A DNA stretch of 9,129 nt from a virus (taxonomy: Duplodnaviria > Heunggongvirae > Uroviricota > Caudoviricetes): IMG/VR virus record IMGVR_UViG_2617270976_000006; one strand, given 5' to 3'. Made by a program: the position numbers and the translations under genes. Shown here one piece after another: positions 3,513 through 6,179 of this stretch (position 1 is its first letter; the number at the start of each line of letters is the position of its first letter). The notes under the pieces were generated by a model. That model saw only the letters and a list, made by a program, of their open reading frames with translations. It did no database searches and was not told the origin of the DNA.

Positions 3513-3743
3513 ATGCTTAAAACTGACGCTCTTTTGTATTTCGGTTCAAAAACAAAACTTGCACAAGCAGCAGGTATTCGTTTGGCTTCGCTTTATAGCT
3601 GGAAAGGGGATTTAGTTCCCGAAGGTCGCGCGATGCGTCTACAGGAGGCATCTGGCGGGGAGCTTCAGTATGATCCCAAAGTTTATGATGAATATCGTAA
3701 GACGAAGCGGGCGGGGCGGTTGAACAATGAAAATCACTCCTGA
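3513..3743 (+). CDS. dicC: DicC, Cro-like regulator (76 aa)
   Basis: Track ORF translation MLKTDALLYFGSKTKLAQAAGIRLASLYSWKGDLVPEGRAMRLQEASGGELQYDPKVYDEYRKTKRAGRLNNENHS matches remembered DicC. Confidence 0.95.
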   Translation: MLKTDALLYFGSKTKLAQAAGIRLASLYSWKGDLVPEGRAMRLQEASGGELQYDPKVYDEYRKTKRAGRLNNENHS

Positions 3744-4038
3744 ACAGGCTCGTGAGGCTCTGGATGCCTGGATATGTCGACCAGGAATGACACAGGAGCA
3801 GGCGACGATATTAATCACTGAAGCATTCTGGGCTTTGAAAGAGCGCCCGAACATCGATGTTCAGCGTGTCACATATGAAGGTGGCGCGATTGATCAGCGA
3901 GCGCTTGGCGTTAATCGAGTGAAGATATTTGAACGCTGGAAGGCTATCGACACCAGGGATAAGCGTGAAAAGTTCACGGCGCTAGTGCCTGCAATTATGG
4001 AGGCTATCAGAAATGATACAAAGATAATATGTCTTTAA
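3727..4038 (+). CDS. Hypothetical prophage protein downstream of dicC, in the positional slot of ydfX (103 aa)
   Basis: Track ORF overlapping the dicC 3' end by 17 nt; weak ribosome-binding site; no domain recognised. An internal Met at codon 21 (3787) is an alternative start. Confidence 0.55.
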   Translation: MKITPEQAREALDAWICRPGMTQEQATILITEAFWALKERPNIDVQRVTYEGGAIDQRALGVNRVKIFERWKAIDTRDKREKFTALVPAIMEAIRNDTKIICL

Positions 4039-4060
4039 AGAAAAGGCTGATGGCGAAAAG

Positions 4061-4077
4061 TGGCCCGATGAGGGCCA
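4061..4077 (-). terminator. Candidate flxA terminator hairpin, TGGCCC-GATGA-GGGCCA, followed on the minus strand by CTTTTCGCC
   Basis: GC-rich 6-bp stem between the convergent stops of the ydfX-like ORF (4038) and flxA (4093); partial U-tract only on the flxA strand. Confidence 0.3.
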
Positions 4078-4092
4078 CAATACGGCTGTCAC

Positions 4093-4425
4093 TTAGACGT
4101 AAATATCAATGGTGCCAGCGGTATTTGTATCGTCTTTTTTCTCTTCTTTTTTATCAGGCTGAACTGTCGCGTCTTCATTCTTTTTCTCTGCCTGCTGCCT
4201 TAACAACTGCTCCAGTTGAGCCCAGAGGCTTTCAATTTGCTTCTGTACCAATGCAGCCATTTCTTTTTTCTGCTGTGTCGTCATCCCCTCTTCCGATGAG
4301 ATTTTCCCAAGCTTTTCAGTCAGCACCTGAATTTGTCTTGTGATTTTGGCTATTTCTGATGTTCCTTCCGGGGCGGAGTTGTTTGAAATAACGGTTGAGG
4401 TATTTCCCTGAATTGTGACAGACAT
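4093..4425 (-). CDS. flxA: FlxA, FliA-regulated protein (110 aa)
   Basis: Track ORF translation MSVTIQGNTSTVISNNSAPEGTSEIAKITRQIQVLTEKLGK... matches remembered FlxA. AAGGAG Shine-Dalgarno 7 nt upstream. Confidence 0.95.
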   Translation of the reverse strand: MSVTIQGNTSTVISNNSAPEGTSEIAKITRQIQVLTEKLGKISSEEGMTTQQKKEMAALVQKQIESLWAQLEQLLRQQAEKKNEDATVQPDKKEEKKDDTNTAGTIDIYV

Positions 4426-4448
4426 AGATTTCTCCTTTTAAAAAAGCA

Positions 4449-4475
4449 CTATCGGCATGCACAAAAAAATCTTTA
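4449..4475 (-). promoter_or_regulatory. Sigma28 (FliA) promoter of flxA: TAAAGATT, 11-nt spacer, GCCGATAG
   Basis: Minus strand reads TAAAGATTTTTTTGTGCATGCCGATAG, a near-perfect match to the class III flagellar consensus TAAAGTTT-N11-GCCGATAA, about 25 nt upstream of the flxA ribosome-binding site. Confidence 0.75.
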
Positions 4476-4556
4476 ATCGTATTTCTTGTGTCATTAATTG
4501 TTTGATGTTCAGATTGTTTTCCTCGCGGGCTGGCGCGCCTCAGAAAGTAAAGCTTG

Positions 4557-4584
4557 TTGACAGGGGTAAACGTTCGGCAATAAT
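4557..4584 (+). promoter_or_regulatory. Orphan sigma70-like promoter: -35 TTGACA (4557..4562), 16-nt spacer, -10 AATAAT (4579..4584)
   Basis: Consensus -35 and 5/6 -10, reading toward relB about 370 nt away and antisense to ydfV. Followed by the palindrome CCGCATGCGG (4591..4600). Confidence 0.3.
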
Positions 4585-4627
4585 TTTCTGCCGCATGCGG
4601 GTGTTGCATAAAACGTGTTACGTTCCT

Positions 4628-4933
4628 TTATCGACAGGTCAGGTCACCGCTCACCCGCCGACGAGAAAGCAACACTGACATGCTAAAGCAAAAAATAGAT
4701 GAATAAGTTGAGTTGTGCATATGTAGCCTGACCGTCACAAAGTATATGGTGTCTGTACCAGTAAGATGATGGCCGGACTCTTTAAAAACGAGCTGACCTG
4801 CACAATACAGGATGGACTTAGCAATGGCTGCTCCTGGCACAAAGCGGACAGTGATCACCGTTCTTACGACTACTTTCTGACTTCCTTCGTGACTTGCCCT
4901 AAGCATGTTGTAGTGCGATACTTGTAATGACAT
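4628..4933 (-). CDS. ydfV: ydfV-position ORF (101 aa), doubtful as a real protein
   Basis: Track ORF of the length I recall for ydfV. It has no Shine-Dalgarno, and its start codon lies inside the relBE operator and promoter. Confidence 0.3.
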   Translation of the reverse strand: MSLQVSHYNMLRASHEGSQKVVVRTVITVRFVPGAAIAKSILYCAGQLVFKESGHHLTGTDTIYFVTVRLHMHNSTYSSIFCFSMSVLLSRRRVSGDLTCR

Positions 4934-4945
4934 TTGTAATTACAA
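4894..4945 (+). promoter_or_regulatory. relBE promoter (-35 TTGCCC 4894..4899, 17-nt spacer, -10 GATACT 4917..4922) and relO operator (TTGTAAT direct repeats; 12-bp palindrome TTGTAATTACAA at 4934..4945)
   Basis: Hexamers and repeats read directly, immediately upstream of the relB ribosome-binding site AGAGGTG. Matches the known RelB/RelBE autoregulatory operator architecture. Confidence 0.7.
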
Positions 4946-4957
4946 GAGGTGTAAGAC

Positions 4958-5197
4958 ATGGGTAGCATTAACCTGCGTATTGACGATGAACTTAAAGCGC
5001 GTTCTTACGCCGCGCTTGAAAAAATGGGTGTAACTCCTTCTGAAGCGCTTCGTCTCATGCTCGAGTATATCGCTGACAATGAACGCTTGCCGTTCAAACA
5101 GACACTCCTGAGTGATGAAGATGCTGAACTTGTGGAGATAGTGAAAGAACGGCTTCGTAATCCTAAGCCAGTACGTGTGACGCTGGATGAACTCTGA
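4958..5197 (+). CDS. relB: RelB antitoxin (79 aa)
   Basis: Translation MGSINLRIDDELKARSYAALEKMGVTPSEALRLMLEYIADNERLPFKQTLLSDEDAELVEIVKERLRNPKPVRVTLDEL. Its TGA stop overlaps the relE ATG. Confidence 0.97.
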   Translation: MGSINLRIDDELKARSYAALEKMGVTPSEALRLMLEYIADNERLPFKQTLLSDEDAELVEIVKERLRNPKPVRVTLDEL

Positions 5198-5484
5198 TGG
5201 CGTATTTTCTGGATTTTGACGAGCGGGCACTAAAGGAATGGCGAAAGCTGGGCTCGACGGTACGTGAACAGTTGAAAAAGAAGCTGGTTGAAGTACTTGA
5301 GTCACCCCGGATTGAAGCAAACAAGCTCCGTGGTATGCCTGATTGTTACAAGATTAAGCTCCGGTCTTCAGGCTATCGCCTTGTATACCAGGTTATAGAC
5401 GAGAAAGTTGTCGTTTTCGTGATTTCTGTTGGGAAAAGAGAACGCTCGGAAGTATATAGCGAGGCGGTCAAACGCATTCTCTGA
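5197..5484 (+). CDS. relE: RelE toxin, ribosome-dependent mRNA endonuclease (95 aa)
   Basis: Translation MAYFLDFDERALKEWRKLGSTVREQLKKKLVEVLESPRIEANKLRGMPDCYKIKLRSSGYRLVYQVIDEKVVVFVISVGKRERSEVYSEAVKRIL. Confidence 0.97.
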   Translation: MAYFLDFDERALKEWRKLGSTVREQLKKKLVEVLESPRIEANKLRGMPDCYKIKLRSSGYRLVYQVIDEKVVVFVISVGKRERSEVYSEAVKRIL

Positions 5485-5555
5485 ACCAAAGCATGACATC
5501 TCTGTCTCGCACCGAAGGTGACACTTCTGCTTTGCGTTGACAGGAGAAGCAGGCT

Positions 5556-5711
5556 ATGAAGCAGCAAAAGGCGATGTTAATCGCCCTGATCGTCATCTGT
5601 TTAACCGTCATAGTGACGGCACTGGTAACGAGGAAAGACCTCTGCGAGGTACGAATCCGAACCGGCCAGACGGAGGTCGCTGTCTTCACAGCTTACGAAC
5701 CTGAGGAGTAA
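5556..5711 (+). CDS. hokD: HokD (RelF), Hok-family small membrane toxin (51 aa)
   Basis: Manual translation MKQQKAMLIALIVICLTVIVTALVTRKDLCEVRIRTGQTEVAVFTAYEPEE. AGGAG Shine-Dalgarno 9 nt upstream. Too short for the ORF track. Confidence 0.9.
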   Translation: MKQQKAMLIALIVICLTVIVTALVTRKDLCEVRIRTGQTEVAVFTAYEPEE

Positions 5712-5779
5712 GAGACCCGGCGGGGGAGAAATCCCTCGCCACCTCTGATGTGGCAGGCATCCTCAACGCACCCGCACTT

Positions 5780-5810
5780 AACCCGCTTCGGCGGGTTTTT
5801 GTTTTTATTT
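5780..5810 (+). terminator. Intrinsic terminator of the relBE-hokD operon: 7-bp stem AACCCGC/GCGGGTT with UUCG tetraloop, then TTTTGTTTTTATTTT
   Basis: Hairpin and U-tract read directly, about 70 nt after the hokD stop. Confidence 0.8.
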
Positions 5811-5927
5811 TCAACGCGTTTGAAGTTCTGGACGGTGCCGGAATAGAATCAAAAATACTTAAGTAGCGCGCAGGGATAAGAGGGATGGTCCCTTAAAGGG
5901 GAGAGCTAATTATCCGGAAGGATTCTG

Positions 5928-6179
5928 ATGATGAACATCGAAGAACTGCGTAAAATTTTTTGTGAAGATGGCCTCTATGCTGTGTGCGTTGAAAATGGAA
6001 ATCTTGTTAGTCATTACCGCATTATGTGTTTGCGAAAGAATGGGGCTGCGTTAATTAATTTTGTGGATGCTCGGGTCACGGACGGATTTATCTTGCGCGA
6101 AGGTGAGTTTGTCACTTCATTACAGGCATTGAAAGAGATCGGAATAAAAGCTGGCTTTTCTGCTTTTTCAGGAGAATAA
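5928..6179 (+). CDS. rem: Rem, small prophage protein of unknown function (83 aa)
   Basis: Track ORF translation MMNIEELRKIFCEDGLYAVCVENGNLVSHYRIMCLRKNGAALINFVDARVTDGFILREGEFVTSLQALKEIGIKAGFSAFSGE. GGAAGGA ribosome-binding site 5 nt upstream. A possible promoter (TTGAAG, 18 nt, TAGAAT) lies at 5820..5849. Confidence 0.85.
   Translation: MMNIEELRKIFCEDGLYAVCVENGNLVSHYRIMCLRKNGAALINFVDARVTDGFILREGEFVTSLQALKEIGIKAGFSAFSGE

What the first reader, a model, noticed from the sequence alone, without database searches (positions are those of the whole stretch)
4440..4957. About 500 bp between flxA and relB with no convincing gene: ydfV looks non-coding and a consensus-like promoter reads antisense to it
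The only ORF, ydfV (101 aa, minus), lacks a ribosome-binding site and its start codon sits inside the relBE operator. On the plus strand a TTGACA-16-AATAAT promoter (4557..4584) and the palindrome CCGCATGCGG point toward relB, and several TGACC-containing repeats are scattered through the interval. The region may encode a non-coding RNA or a second upstream promoter feeding the relBE-hokD operon, rather than a protein.
Basis: partly seen in the sequence, partly recalled or inferred. Interest (0 to 1): 0.45.

Follow-up and report, generated by a model that had tools for sequence, protein, structure and literature searches.

The report
Non-coding joint of two mobile modules
The 500 bp between flxA and relB in the E. 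coli K-12 Qin prophage is control DNA stitched together from two independently mobile modules; the annotated gene ydfV is most likely a chance reading frame across the seam, and the consensus-like promoter on the other strand is real but very weak.

Summary
The window is the Qin prophage of E. coli K-12, reverse-complemented. The described features are at the stated coordinates.

ydfV (4628-4933, minus) has no Shine-Dalgarno pairing. Its ATG lies inside the relBE operator, 2-4 nt past the mapped relBE start (4929). It has no recorded start site of its own, no family match and no confident fold. Its only relatives are near-identical DNA with swapped N- or C-termini.

The ORF crosses a module boundary. 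Codons 29-36 are a 24-bp dyad site (4826-4849) that ends a ~1-kb flxA cassette. Codons 1-28 belong to the relBE promoter module, found on 779 plasmids.

The TTGACA-16-AATAAT promoter is the best sigma-70 match in the window. A published primary-transcript map records a start exactly at 4591, with only 4 reads. Full-length relBE-hokD transcripts were recorded only from 4929. Nothing indicates a structured or terminated RNA. The palindrome is a chance-level feature; the four TGACC copies are a weak post-hoc local excess.

A functional RNA or a second relBE promoter is not supported.

Side result: the 24-bp site defines cassette arrays at the phage P2 Z/fun hotspot.

The parts
4448..4475 (-). Sigma-28 (FliA) promoter of flxA: -35 TAAAGATT (4468-4475) and -10 GCCGATAG (4449-4456), read on the minus strand
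   Evidence: The FliA ChIP-seq motif TAAAGATTTTTTTGTGCATGCCGATAGT listed for flxA is the reverse complement of 4448-4475. flxA expression was 280 in wild type and 2 in the fliA mutant (Fitzgerald 2014). The RpoF SELEX peak lies in the same spacer.
4476..4825 (.). Right arm of the flxA cassette: about 350 bp of DNA with no supported gene, which always travels with flxA
   Evidence: The block from window-equivalent 3835 to 4849 is about 99% identical in four or more unrelated contexts. No ORF in it matches Pfam or PHROGs. There is no Rfam hit.
4557..4584 (+). Weak sigma-70 promoter TTGACA-16-AATAAT, divergent from flxA; transcription start at 4591
   Evidence: 11/12 match. A start site at U00096.2 1644263 (window 4591) with 4 reads is listed with exactly this upstream sequence in TEX-enriched 5' RACE-seq (Kim 2012).
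4591..4600 (.). Palindrome CCGCATGCGG at +1 to +10 of that promoter; a chance-level feature
   Evidence: at least one perfect 10-bp palindrome in 852 of 2000 shuffles of the interval.
4522..4522 (+). Further low-count plus-strand start site (2 reads)
   Evidence: Kim 2012, U00096.2 1644332.
4757..4757 (+). Further low-count plus-strand start site (4 reads); a TATGGT -10-like hexamer lies 7 nt upstream
   Evidence: Kim 2012, U00096.2 1644097. The hexamer was read from the sequence listed in the table.
4628..4933 (-). ydfV ORF (101 aa), most likely not a gene. Codons 1-28 are antisense to the relBE promoter and operator, codons 29-36 are the 24-bp dyad site, and codons 37-101 are the cassette arm
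   Evidence: chimeric relatives; no SD; no start site of its own; no family; mean pLDDT 52; spans a module boundary.
4826..4849 (-). 24-bp dyad-symmetric 'type B' site, GTCCGCT-TTGTGCCAGG-AGCAGCC on the minus strand. It is the right end of the flxA cassette and the left limit of the relBE module
   Evidence: Homology breakpoints fall at 4845-4852 in the 18 loci examined and at 4830 in plasmids. It forms an inverted repeat with the cassette's left end. The same site type bounds 57 other cassettes. The common SNPs at 4840, 4842 and 4846 fall on positions that vary between cassette copies of this site.
4894..4929 (+). relBE-hokD promoter: -35 TTGCCC (4894-4899), 17-nt spacer, -10 GATACT (4917-4922), start at 4929
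   Evidence: SMRT-Cappable-seq places the operon start at NC_000913.3 1645901, which is window 4929, and the end at 1645028, which is window 5802. The hexamers were read from the sequence relative to that start. A sigma-70 SELEX peak lies in the relB/ydfV spacer.
4917..4946 (.). relBE operator (relO) repeats, overlapping the -10 element, the start site and the ydfV ATG
   Evidence: direct repeats GATACTTGTAAT and GACATTTGTAAT, and inverted repeat CTTGTAATGACA / TGTAATTACAAG. The identification as the RelB/RelE binding site rests on established knowledge of relBE autoregulation, recalled from memory.

Best explanation
The interval is non-coding control DNA made by joining two mobile modules.

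The left part (to 4849) is the right arm of a ~1-kb flxA cassette. It carries the FliA-dependent flxA promoter (4448-4475, minus strand) and, 82 bp away and divergent from it, a near-consensus but weak sigma-70 promoter that starts transcription at 4591 on the plus strand. The cassette ends in a 24-bp dyad site (4826-4849).

The right part (4850-4957) is the autoregulated relBE promoter and operator, with its start at 4929.

ydfV is an open frame that happens to run through all three pieces. It has no ribosome-binding site or promoter of its own and is most likely not translated into a functional protein.

Shown: the module boundaries, the sigma-28 promoter, the 4929 start and the 4591 start.

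Inferred: the 4591 transcript is low-level, unstructured, untranslated RNA that mostly decays or terminates before relB. It is background transcription from a cassette-borne promoter, not a dedicated regulator.
For: Identity of the locus.

flxA promoter.

relBE start at 4929, and the only start recorded for relBE-hokD operon transcripts.

4591 start: 4 reads, with the upstream sequence identical to the predicted promoter. With 3,746 start sites in that map, the chance of one falling on a given base and strand is about 4e-4.

Promoter rarity.

ydfV has no SD pairing (+0.9 kcal/mol, against -7 to -9 for its neighbours).

No minus-strand promoter-like site of 9/12 or better in 4300-5100. No start site assigned to ydfV in either map.

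Only 31 related protein clusters among 5.8 billion. All are Enterobacterales with near-identical segments, and the N-terminal 33 residues and the remainder occur separately with unrelated partners.

The relBE module plus the 24-bp site occurs on 779 plasmids, and only 18 of these carry the rest of the interval.

The flxA cassette occurs without relBE in the 18 loci examined.

No Pfam or PHROG family. AlphaFold mean pLDDT is 52, with no residue at 70 or above.

No Rfam hit. No structure signal on either strand. No plus-strand terminator-like site between 4591 and relB.
Against: An ATG ORF of 101 aa or more arises inside shuffles of this 532-bp interval only 1.3% of the time. Annotation, however, selects exactly such ORFs.

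No frameshift or stop interrupts the frame in about 80 copies. Away from the junction, SNPs split 5 synonymous to 4 non-synonymous. This is too few to test, but it is not the pattern expected of junk.

A strand-matched ydfV RNA signal is reported from a tiling array and from coverage-based analysis, which found ydfV up and relBE down under four antibiotics. A ydfV::Tn10 insertion has a phenotype attributed to reduced relB expression. DNA or transcription across this interval can therefore matter for relBE.

I could not inspect Ribo-seq or proteomics data.

The absence of a 4591-initiated relBE transcript rests on one long-read data set with unknown thresholds.
Confidence: 0.7

Rival explanations
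1. ydfV is a genuine expressed gene, or at least a functional minus-strand transcript. Its 5' end overlaps the relBE 5' end, so that the two loci repress each other by transcriptional interference and double-stranded RNA cleavage (an 'excludon').
For: ExcludonFinder (NAR 2025) reports opposite changes of ydfV and relBE under four antibiotics and proposes this model. A tiling array detected ydfV RNA in untreated cells. ydfV::Tn10 suppresses the lethality of an rne deletion, which is attributed to lowered relB expression. The ORF is longer than expected by chance.
Against: The pair is not in that paper's core set of 16 divergent excludons, which required detection in at least 50% of samples. The method infers transcript ends from coverage drops, with only a 24-bp gap between the genes. 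No minus-strand start site is recorded upstream of the ATG in two start-site maps. There is no promoter-like sequence and no RBS. The ORF is chimeric across module boundaries. The Tn10 effect was reversed by relB, not by ydfV. An RNA-level role does not require a protein.
Confidence: 0.12
2. The 4591 promoter is a functional second promoter of relBE-hokD. It supplies RelB-independent read-through transcription into the operon under some conditions.
For: The promoter and its start site are real and point at relB with no terminator-like site between them. The start site was assigned to relB with a 367-nt leader. A Tn10 insertion in ydfV, whose position is unknown to me, lowers relB function.
Against: Only 4 reads support the start. 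The SMRT-Cappable-seq tables held here list relBE-hokD and relBE-hokD-rem transcripts only from 4929. The assignment to relB is an automatic nearest-gene rule. The promoter belongs to the flxA cassette, which occurs in P2-like and other elements without relBE. About 760 of the 779 plasmids with relBE lack it.
Confidence: 0.1
3. The 4591 transcript encodes a small protein or a trans-acting small RNA. One candidate is the 27-codon frame that starts at the ATG at 4595, almost leaderless.
For: An ATG lies 4 nt after the start site and opens a 27-codon frame ending at 4678. The few SNPs in it split 3 synonymous to 2 non-synonymous by my reading.
Against: There is no SD (-1.7 kcal/mol), no family match for the enclosing 73-aa ORF, no structure or terminator, no Rfam family and very low abundance.
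Confidence: 0.05

Closest known systems
Spurious or orphan ORF annotations in E. coli K-12 prophages (y-genes with no evidence of expression)
   Same: A long ATG ORF in acquired DNA, with no RBS, no homologues beyond the same DNA, no family and no confident fold.
   Different: Here the cause can be seen directly. The frame crosses a recombination site and runs into the antisense strand of a promoter and operator. Its two halves have separate evolutionary histories.
relBE promoter and operator (relO) with conditional-cooperativity autoregulation
   Same: The 4894-4946 segment has the -35 and -10 elements, the start at 4929 and the hexad repeats. It travels with relBE on hundreds of plasmids.
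   Different: Nothing differs in the operator itself. New here is that the relBE module regularly abuts a 24-bp cassette-end site.
Class 3 flagellar (FliA, sigma-28) promoters
   Same: 4448-4475 matches TAAAGTTT-N11-GCCGATAA. It is bound by FliA in vivo and flxA expression depends on fliA.
   Different: None. This feature is already known.
Pervasive weak sigma-70 promoters in horizontally acquired DNA, and outward-reading promoters of mobile elements
   Same: A good hexamer match, a few reads at the start site, no associated gene, and antisense to an annotated ORF. It lies near the end of a mobile cassette and reads outward.
   Different: The match is unusually close to consensus (11/12) for so weak a signal. 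Repression or rapid RNA decay was not tested.
Excludons (overlapping divergent transcription units)
   Same: A published model names relBE-ydfV as one.
   Different: Neither start-site map supports a ydfV start that overlaps the relBE 5' end. The only mapped starts in the interval are on the relBE strand.
Integron gene cassettes with attC sites; pdif modules of Acinetobacter plasmids; BIME/REP arrays; PeSL cassettes of T4-type phages
   Same: For the 24-bp site: cassettes with diverse cargo lie in tandem arrays. They are separated by a 66-bp imperfect palindrome (site, 18-bp linker, inverted site) that can fold into a hairpin with fixed mismatches. The same cassette appears in unrelated replicons.
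   Different: The sequence is unlike attC core sites (GTTRRRY), Xer sites (11-6-11) or REP. Cargo orientation is not fixed. No dedicated recombinase was identified. Each cassette is flanked by inverted, not direct, copies of the site.
Phage P2 Z/fun variable locus (between tail genes G and FI)
   Same: The arrays lie between H/G and FI in P2-like prophages. P2's own fun(Z) gene is bounded by a type B site and a degenerate type A site.
   Different: In K-12 the flxA cassette sits in a lambdoid prophage next to relBE. Its left end has been deleted there.

Membership tests
Protein-coding gene (ydfV) | Translation initiation region (Shine-Dalgarno pairing or leaderless start) | tested here: not met
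   Duplex energy is +0.9 kcal/mol, against -5.7 to -10.6 for seven neighbouring genes with their own SD; relE, which overlaps relB (ATGA) and is presumably translationally coupled, scores -3.1. The ATG lies past the relBE start on the other strand, so no leaderless start is mapped.
Protein-coding gene (ydfV) | Homologues that diverge as a protein and are conserved as one unit | tested here: not met
   There are 31 clusters, all with near-identical segments. The N- and C-terminal parts occur separately with unrelated partners. There are no Pfam or PHROG matches.
Protein-coding gene (ydfV) | Purifying selection on codons | tested here: inconclusive
   About 80 copies are 99% or more identical. 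Away from the junction there are 5 synonymous and 4 non-synonymous SNPs and no indels. The flxA control shows 2 synonymous and 9 non-synonymous. The test has no power.
Protein-coding gene (ydfV) | Evidence of translation (Ribo-seq, proteomics) | not testable with these tools
   No such data set was readable. No paper in the library reports the protein.
Protein-coding gene (ydfV) | Confidently predicted fold | tested here: not met
   Mean pLDDT is 52.2 and no residue reaches 70. This is weak evidence, because the prediction used a single sequence.
Sigma-70 promoter (4557-4584) | -35 and -10 hexamers with a 16-18 nt spacer | tested here: met
   11/12 match with a 16-nt spacer, and the best match in the window.
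Sigma-70 promoter (4557-4584) | Primary transcript 5' end 6-8 nt downstream of the -10 element | tested here: met
   A start site lies at 4591, 7 nt after the hexamer, with 4 reads in a TEX-enriched library.
Sigma-70 promoter (4557-4584) | Activity lost on mutation of the hexamers or in a reporter fusion | not testable with these tools
   This needs an experiment.
Bacterial small regulatory RNA | Defined 3' end (intrinsic terminator) and a stable structure or a known family | tested here: not met
   No terminator-like site on the plus strand between 4591 and relB. Folding z = +0.31. No Rfam match at E of 1 or below.
Second promoter of the relBE-hokD operon | Transcripts that start at 4591 and continue through relB | tested here: not met
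   The SMRT-Cappable-seq tables held here list relBE-hokD operon transcripts only from 4929. This is one data set with unknown thresholds.
Excludon (relBE-ydfV) | Mapped overlapping 5' ends of two divergent transcripts | tested here: not met
   No minus-strand start is recorded. The pair is absent from the published core excludome. Coverage-based evidence for it does exist.
Site-bounded gene cassette of the P2 Z/fun hotspot type (flxA cassette) | Bounded by one type A and one type B 24-bp dyad site in inverted orientation | tested here: met
   The flxA cassette has GTCCGCTTTGAGCAAGAAGCGGAA on the left and GTCCGCTTTGTGCCAGGAGCAGCC (reverse complement) on the right. 56 of 57 other cassettes have one A and one B site. 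The K-12 window retains only the B site.
Site-bounded gene cassette of the P2 Z/fun hotspot type (flxA cassette) | Occurs between tail-fibre genes H/G and tail sheath gene FI of P2-like phages | tested here: met
   The flxA cassette lies there in L025. Recurrent flanking proteins of the arrays begin with sequences I recognise from memory as P2 H, G, FI and FII; these were not family-searched. Record annotation confirms the position in phage 899 and in phage P2 itself.
Integron gene cassette (attC) | attC with RYYYAAC and GTTRRRY core sites, next to an intI integrase | tested here: not met
   The site consensus is GTCYGCT-N10-AGCRGAC. No intI-type neighbour is among the recurrent flanking proteins.

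The most novel reading that the evidence does not exclude
The 24-bp dyad site inside ydfV (4826-4849) is the end of a previously uncharacterised, integron-like cassette system. Gene cassettes of 0.4-3.5 kb are each bounded by inverted type A and type B copies of GTCYGCT-N10-AGCRGAC. In arrays they are joined by an exact 18-bp linker, which gives a 66-bp foldable palindrome. The cargo includes TIR, deaminase, GmrSD-N-domain, RelA/SpoT-domain, Macro, radical SAM and FlxA proteins. These cassettes populate the Z/fun hotspot of P2-like phages and spill into lambdoid prophages and plasmids next to relBE and a cer-like Xer site. If the sites are substrates of a recombinase, this would be the missing mechanism for the rapid swapping of defence genes at phage hotspots. 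Two recent studies state that this mechanism is unknown. The sequence pattern itself is solid. Whether it is recombinase-driven, and whether it was already described by Nilsson et al. 2004 (a paper I could not read), is open.
Probability: 0.35. Interest if true: 0.75.

Novelty: new member of a known kind. Interest (0 to 1): 0.4.

Why it matters
For the finding itself, the value is housekeeping. ydfV should be treated as a doubtful gene. Phenotypes or expression changes assigned to ydfV, such as the Tn10 suppressor of an rne deletion and the antibiotic 'excludon', are better read as effects on the relBE promoter region or on non-coding transcription. The weak 4591 promoter explains a start site that a public table attributes to relB with a 367-nt leader.

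The wider value lies in the seam. The same 24-bp site marks cassette boundaries at a phage hotspot rich in defence-type genes. This gives a concrete sequence handle for testing how such hotspots exchange genes.

Tried and rejected
Start-site tables. The held supplements of the Cappable-seq paper contained no coordinates for this region. Conway 2014 has no held supplements. Thomason 2015, Ju 2019 and Tamura 2012 are not held. A compiled sRNA table lists candidates only between flxA and ydfW, none in this interval.

Codon-substitution test. About 80 IMG/VR copies and more than 1,200 E. coli genomes are 99% or more identical, so the test has no power. A scan of species-representative genomes with FlxA returned only two E. 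coli loci. No diverged copy of the interval exists in the phage, plasmid or E. coli collections at blastn sensitivity.

I first took 4004 as the left end of the flxA module. That is a K-12-specific deletion joint; the true end is 169 bp further left.

I considered that relBE's right breakpoint (5542) carries a matching site (TCTGCTTTGCG at 5526). At three mismatches the motif is at chance frequency in the window, so I dropped the idea.

C/G skew gave no clear Rho-utilisation signal.

One literature search returned nothing relevant.
Full report
IDENTITY AND COORDINATES. The window matches E. coli K-12 at 100% identity. It is the Qin cryptic prophage in reverse-complement orientation. The conversion is NC_000913.3 position = 1650830 minus window position; U00096.2 positions are 1976 lower. 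I derived this offset from the relB coordinates. The annotated genes are flxA 4093-4425 (minus), ydfV 4628-4933 (minus), relB 4958-5197, relE 5197-5484 and hokD 5556-5711 (all plus).

OBSERVATION. The 101-aa ORF is at 4628-4933. Pairing of its upstream 20 nt with the 16S 3' end is +0.9 kcal/mol, against -8.7 for flxA, -7.1 for relB and -7.4 for hokD. Its ATG (4931-4933) lies inside the relBE operator repeats.

The plus-strand TTGACA-16-AATAAT sits at 4557-4584 and is the only match of 10/12 or better in the window. A match that good appears in 1.6% of shuffles of the interval and in 11% of shuffles of the window. It is unusual but not extraordinary for a reader scanning 9 kb.

The palindrome CCGCATGCGG (4591-4600) is chance level, with at least one such palindrome in 43% of shuffles. 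TGACC occurs four times in the interval, against about 0.9 expected locally, but it is not enriched window-wide. I treat this as a weak excess for a motif chosen after the fact.

WHAT THE KNOWN ELEMENTS EXPLAIN. The leftmost 50 bp are the FliA (sigma-28) promoter of flxA. The ChIP-seq motif published for flxA, TAAAGATTTTTTTGTGCATGCCGATAGT, is the reverse complement of 4448-4475, and flxA expression falls from 280 to 2 in a fliA mutant.

The rightmost 65 bp are the relBE promoter and operator. SMRT-Cappable-seq puts the relBE-hokD start at window 4929 and the end at 5802. Relative to that start, the sequence reads TTGCCC-17-GATACT (4894-4922). A sigma-70 holoenzyme SELEX peak lies in the relB/ydfV spacer.

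THE PLUS-STRAND PROMOTER IS REAL BUT WEAK. Kim et al. 2012 mapped 3,746 primary 5' ends in mid-exponential MG1655 by TEX-enriched 5' RACE-seq. Their table lists a start at U00096.2 1644263, which is window 4591, exactly 7 nt after the AATAAT hexamer. The upstream sequence given is ...TTGACAGGGGTAAACGTTCGGCAATAATTTTCTGC, with 4 reads. At that start-site density, the chance of a recorded start on a given base and strand is about 4e-4. The agreement with the prediction is therefore not a coincidence.

Two further low-count plus-strand starts are listed, at 4757 (4 reads) and 4522 (2 reads). All three are assigned to relB, but only by the paper's rule of taking the nearest downstream gene within 700 bp.

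In the SMRT-Cappable-seq tables held as text here, relBE-hokD and relBE-hokD-rem transcripts start only at 4929, and no start with coordinates 16462xx is listed. I therefore find no support for 4591 feeding the operon at a meaningful level.

Nothing suggests a dedicated RNA product. There is no Rfam match anywhere in the interval. There is no terminator-like site on the plus strand between 4591 and relB. Folding energy for 4591-4928 is indistinguishable from shuffles on either strand (z = +0.31 and -0.95).

ydfV. No start site is assigned to ydfV in either map. No promoter-like sequence of 9/12 or better exists on the minus strand in 4300-5100.

A search of 5.8 billion protein clusters found 31 relatives, all from Enterobacterales and all near-identical over the parts that match. 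The alignment shows three pieces with separate lives:
- Residues 1-33 occur in Citrobacter, Cronobacter, Salmonella and Enterobacter proteins with unrelated C-termini.
- Residues from about 34 to 75 occur with many unrelated N-termini.
- The tail is replaced in others.

No ORF of the interval matches Pfam or PHROGs, whereas the flxA control does. AlphaFold gives a mean pLDDT of 52, with no residue at 70 or above; this is weak evidence because a single sequence was used.

Three points count against a purely chance ORF. A frame this long arises in only 1.3% of shuffles. No copy carries a frameshift. The few SNPs away from the junction are 5 synonymous to 4 non-synonymous. The sample is too shallow to test; flxA itself shows 2 synonymous to 9 non-synonymous. 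Annotation also selects long ORFs.

RNA from the ydfV strand has been reported from a tiling array and from coverage-based analysis that proposes a relBE-ydfV 'excludon'. However, the pair is absent from that paper's core list, and the method infers transcript ends from coverage alone. The ydfV::Tn10 suppressor phenotype is attributed to lowered relB expression and, according to the ExcludonFinder authors, was reversed by relB overexpression rather than by ydfV.

THE INTERVAL IS A SEAM BETWEEN TWO MOBILE MODULES. On 779 plasmids of Klebsiella, Enterobacter, Escherichia, Citrobacter, Salmonella and others, homology to the interval begins at window 4815-4835 and runs into relB. Only 18 of these plasmids carry the rest.

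Conversely, in the 18 IMG/VR and E. coli loci examined, homology runs from flxA rightwards and stops at 4845-4852, with no relBE. Pairwise comparison of four such contexts defines a block of about 1015 bp, from window-equivalent 3835 to 4849, that is about 99% identical in otherwise unrelated surroundings. K-12 has lost the leftmost 169 bp of this block at a strain-specific joint at 4004.

The contexts are:
- Qin-like prophages with relBE.
- An element next to an integrase and pinE.
- A location directly after another integrase gene (by my reading, P4-type).
- Between the tail-sheath gene and the tail-fibre genes of a P2-like prophage (genes identified from their N-terminal sequences).

The block's two ends are inverted copies of a 24-bp dyad-symmetric site. 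The left end is GTCCGCT-TTGAGCAAGA-AGCGGAA. The right end, at window 4826-4849 read on the minus strand, is GTCCGCT-TTGTGCCAGG-AGCAGCC. These 24 bases are ydfV codons 29-36. The commonest 'non-synonymous' ydfV variants (R30C, F31S/Y, V32L at 4846, 4842 and 4840) fall on positions that vary between cassette copies of this site.

ydfV is therefore antisense relBE promoter and operator (codons 1-28), a boundary site (codons 29-36) and cassette arm (codons 37-101).

SIDE RESULT: THE SITE DEFINES CASSETTE ARRAYS. In the 108 new loci, which total 1.02 Mb, a 21-position consensus finds 196 sites, against 0-2 in shuffles. Sixty loci have two or more sites.

The sites come in two spacer types, A (..TGAGCGAG..) and B (..TGTGCCAG..). 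Of 57 cassettes of 367-3451 bp, 56 are bounded by one A and one B site in inverted orientation. Where cassettes are adjacent, the gap between sites is exactly 18 bp in 22 of 26 cases, with a loose consensus CTTYAGCYCAGTTAMCT. The resulting 66-nt junction folds into an imperfect hairpin of -25 to -30 kcal/mol.

Cargo includes TIR, dCMP-deaminase, radical SAM, GmrSD N-terminal, RelA/SpoT, Macro, ParA-like and GAF-EAL domain proteins. Cargo orientation is not fixed: 34 in one direction and 23 in the other.

The commonest flanking ORFs of the arrays begin with sequences that I recognise from memory as P2 tail fibre H, tail-fibre assembly G, tail sheath FI and tail tube FII; I did not run a family search on them. 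Record annotation confirms the position independently: Escherichia phage 899 has tail fibre, tail-fibre assembly, cassette, junction, cassette, tail sheath. Phage P2 itself has a B site 60 nt after G and a degenerate A site before the pF activator site, and these bracket fun(Z). This is the classical Z/fun variable locus.

In plasmid L004 a different cargo, a 246-aa hypothetical protein, lies between an A and a B site immediately upstream of relBE. A sequence resembling cer/dif Xer sites (GGTGCGCGTAA-TGAGGCG-TTATGGTAAAT) lies 13 nt outside the A site. The resemblance is judged from my memory of those consensus sequences. The same flank occurs in full-length Qin-like prophages.

Two recent studies of P2/P4 hotspots state that the exchange mechanism is unknown, and neither mentions such repeats. 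The title of Nilsson et al. [quoted passage not shown] I could not read that paper.

MECHANISM, WITH STATUS OF EACH STEP.
- Shown: FliA drives flxA from 4448-4475.
- Shown: RNA polymerase with sigma-70 starts relBE-hokD at 4929, within the operator repeats.
- Shown: a primary transcript starts at 4591 at very low abundance.
- Shown: the interval is a junction of two modules at the 24-bp site.
- Inferred: the 4591 promoter is a cassette-borne, outward-reading promoter. Its RNA is untranslated, unstructured and short-lived, and it contributes little to relBE.
- Inferred: ydfV is not translated.
- Inferred: effects attributed to ydfV act through relBE promoter DNA or through non-coding transcription.
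- Not known: why an 11/12 promoter gives so few reads. Repression, the 16-nt spacer, the A at -12 and rapid decay are all possible.
- Not known: what moves the cassettes.

VERDICT. As a finding about K-12 it is modest. Most parts are known elements, the promoter already sits in a public table under another gene's name, and the main correction is that ydfV is a doubtful gene. The seam itself leads to a more interesting and possibly under-described cassette system.

Noticed in passing
window 4826-4849; loci L094-L204 (e.g. L123 1321-1386, L202 3501-3566, L204 836-859 and 2933-2956): A 24-bp dyad site, GTCYGCT-N10-AGCRGAC, occurs in two spacer types (A and B) and bounds gene cassettes. Arrays have an exact 18-bp linker between cassettes. 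They lie at the P2 Z/fun hotspot between tail genes G and FI, and P2's own fun(Z) is bracketed by such sites. There are 196 sites in 1.02 Mb, against 0-2 in shuffles.
   Followed up: partly
L004 1410-1451; L010 just left of 10888: A cer/dif-like Xer site, GGTGCGCGTAA-TGAGGCG-TTATGGTAAAT, lies 13 nt outside the type A site. It is found both on an IncFIB plasmid and in full-length Qin-like prophages. The order Xer-like site, cassette, relBE looks like a captured plasmid-maintenance region. The similarity to cer and dif is judged from memory.
   Followed up: no
window 4004 (joint) and 3900-4009: K-12 Qin has a strain-specific deletion joint at 4004. In most related prophages, 3900-4008 and 4004 onwards lie about 3-7 kb apart (e.g. 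5.3 kb in L010). The flxA cassette's left 169 bp, including its type A site, are present in those prophages but missing in K-12.
   Followed up: partly
window 3642-4723 and 4648-6070: Natural deletion variants exist. L009, L046, L049 and L063 join 3641 to 4724, removing flxA and half of the arm. L091 joins 4647 to 6071, removing relBE-hokD and most of ydfV.
   Followed up: no
window 5720-5801 (+): There is a sub-threshold Rfam match to isrK, an Hfq-binding sRNA of Salmonella prophages (25 bits against a gathering score of 50; E = 0.038). It lies just after hokD and ends at the mapped relBE-hokD transcript end (5802).
   Followed up: no
window about 4007-4089 and 3709-3784: Published sRNA candidates between flxA and ydfW (IGRSTf; IS077/ECS010) map here, outside the finding. 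The flxA terminator hairpin GTGGCCC-GATGA-GGGCCAC is at 4061-4079.
   Followed up: no
window 4262-4272: The T-run inside flxA carries 1-bp indels in 4 of about 80 copies, and flxA is annotated as frameshifted in strain a7. flxA SNPs are mostly non-synonymous (9 to 2), which suggests relaxed constraint on flxA itself.
   Followed up: no
window 4605-4680 (-): On the minus strand, just after the ydfV stop codon, a long imperfect hairpin (GUGUUGC...GUAACAC) is followed by GUUUUAU. It could act as a weak terminator shielding the flxA promoter from read-in transcription. The terminator scan did not call it.
   Followed up: no
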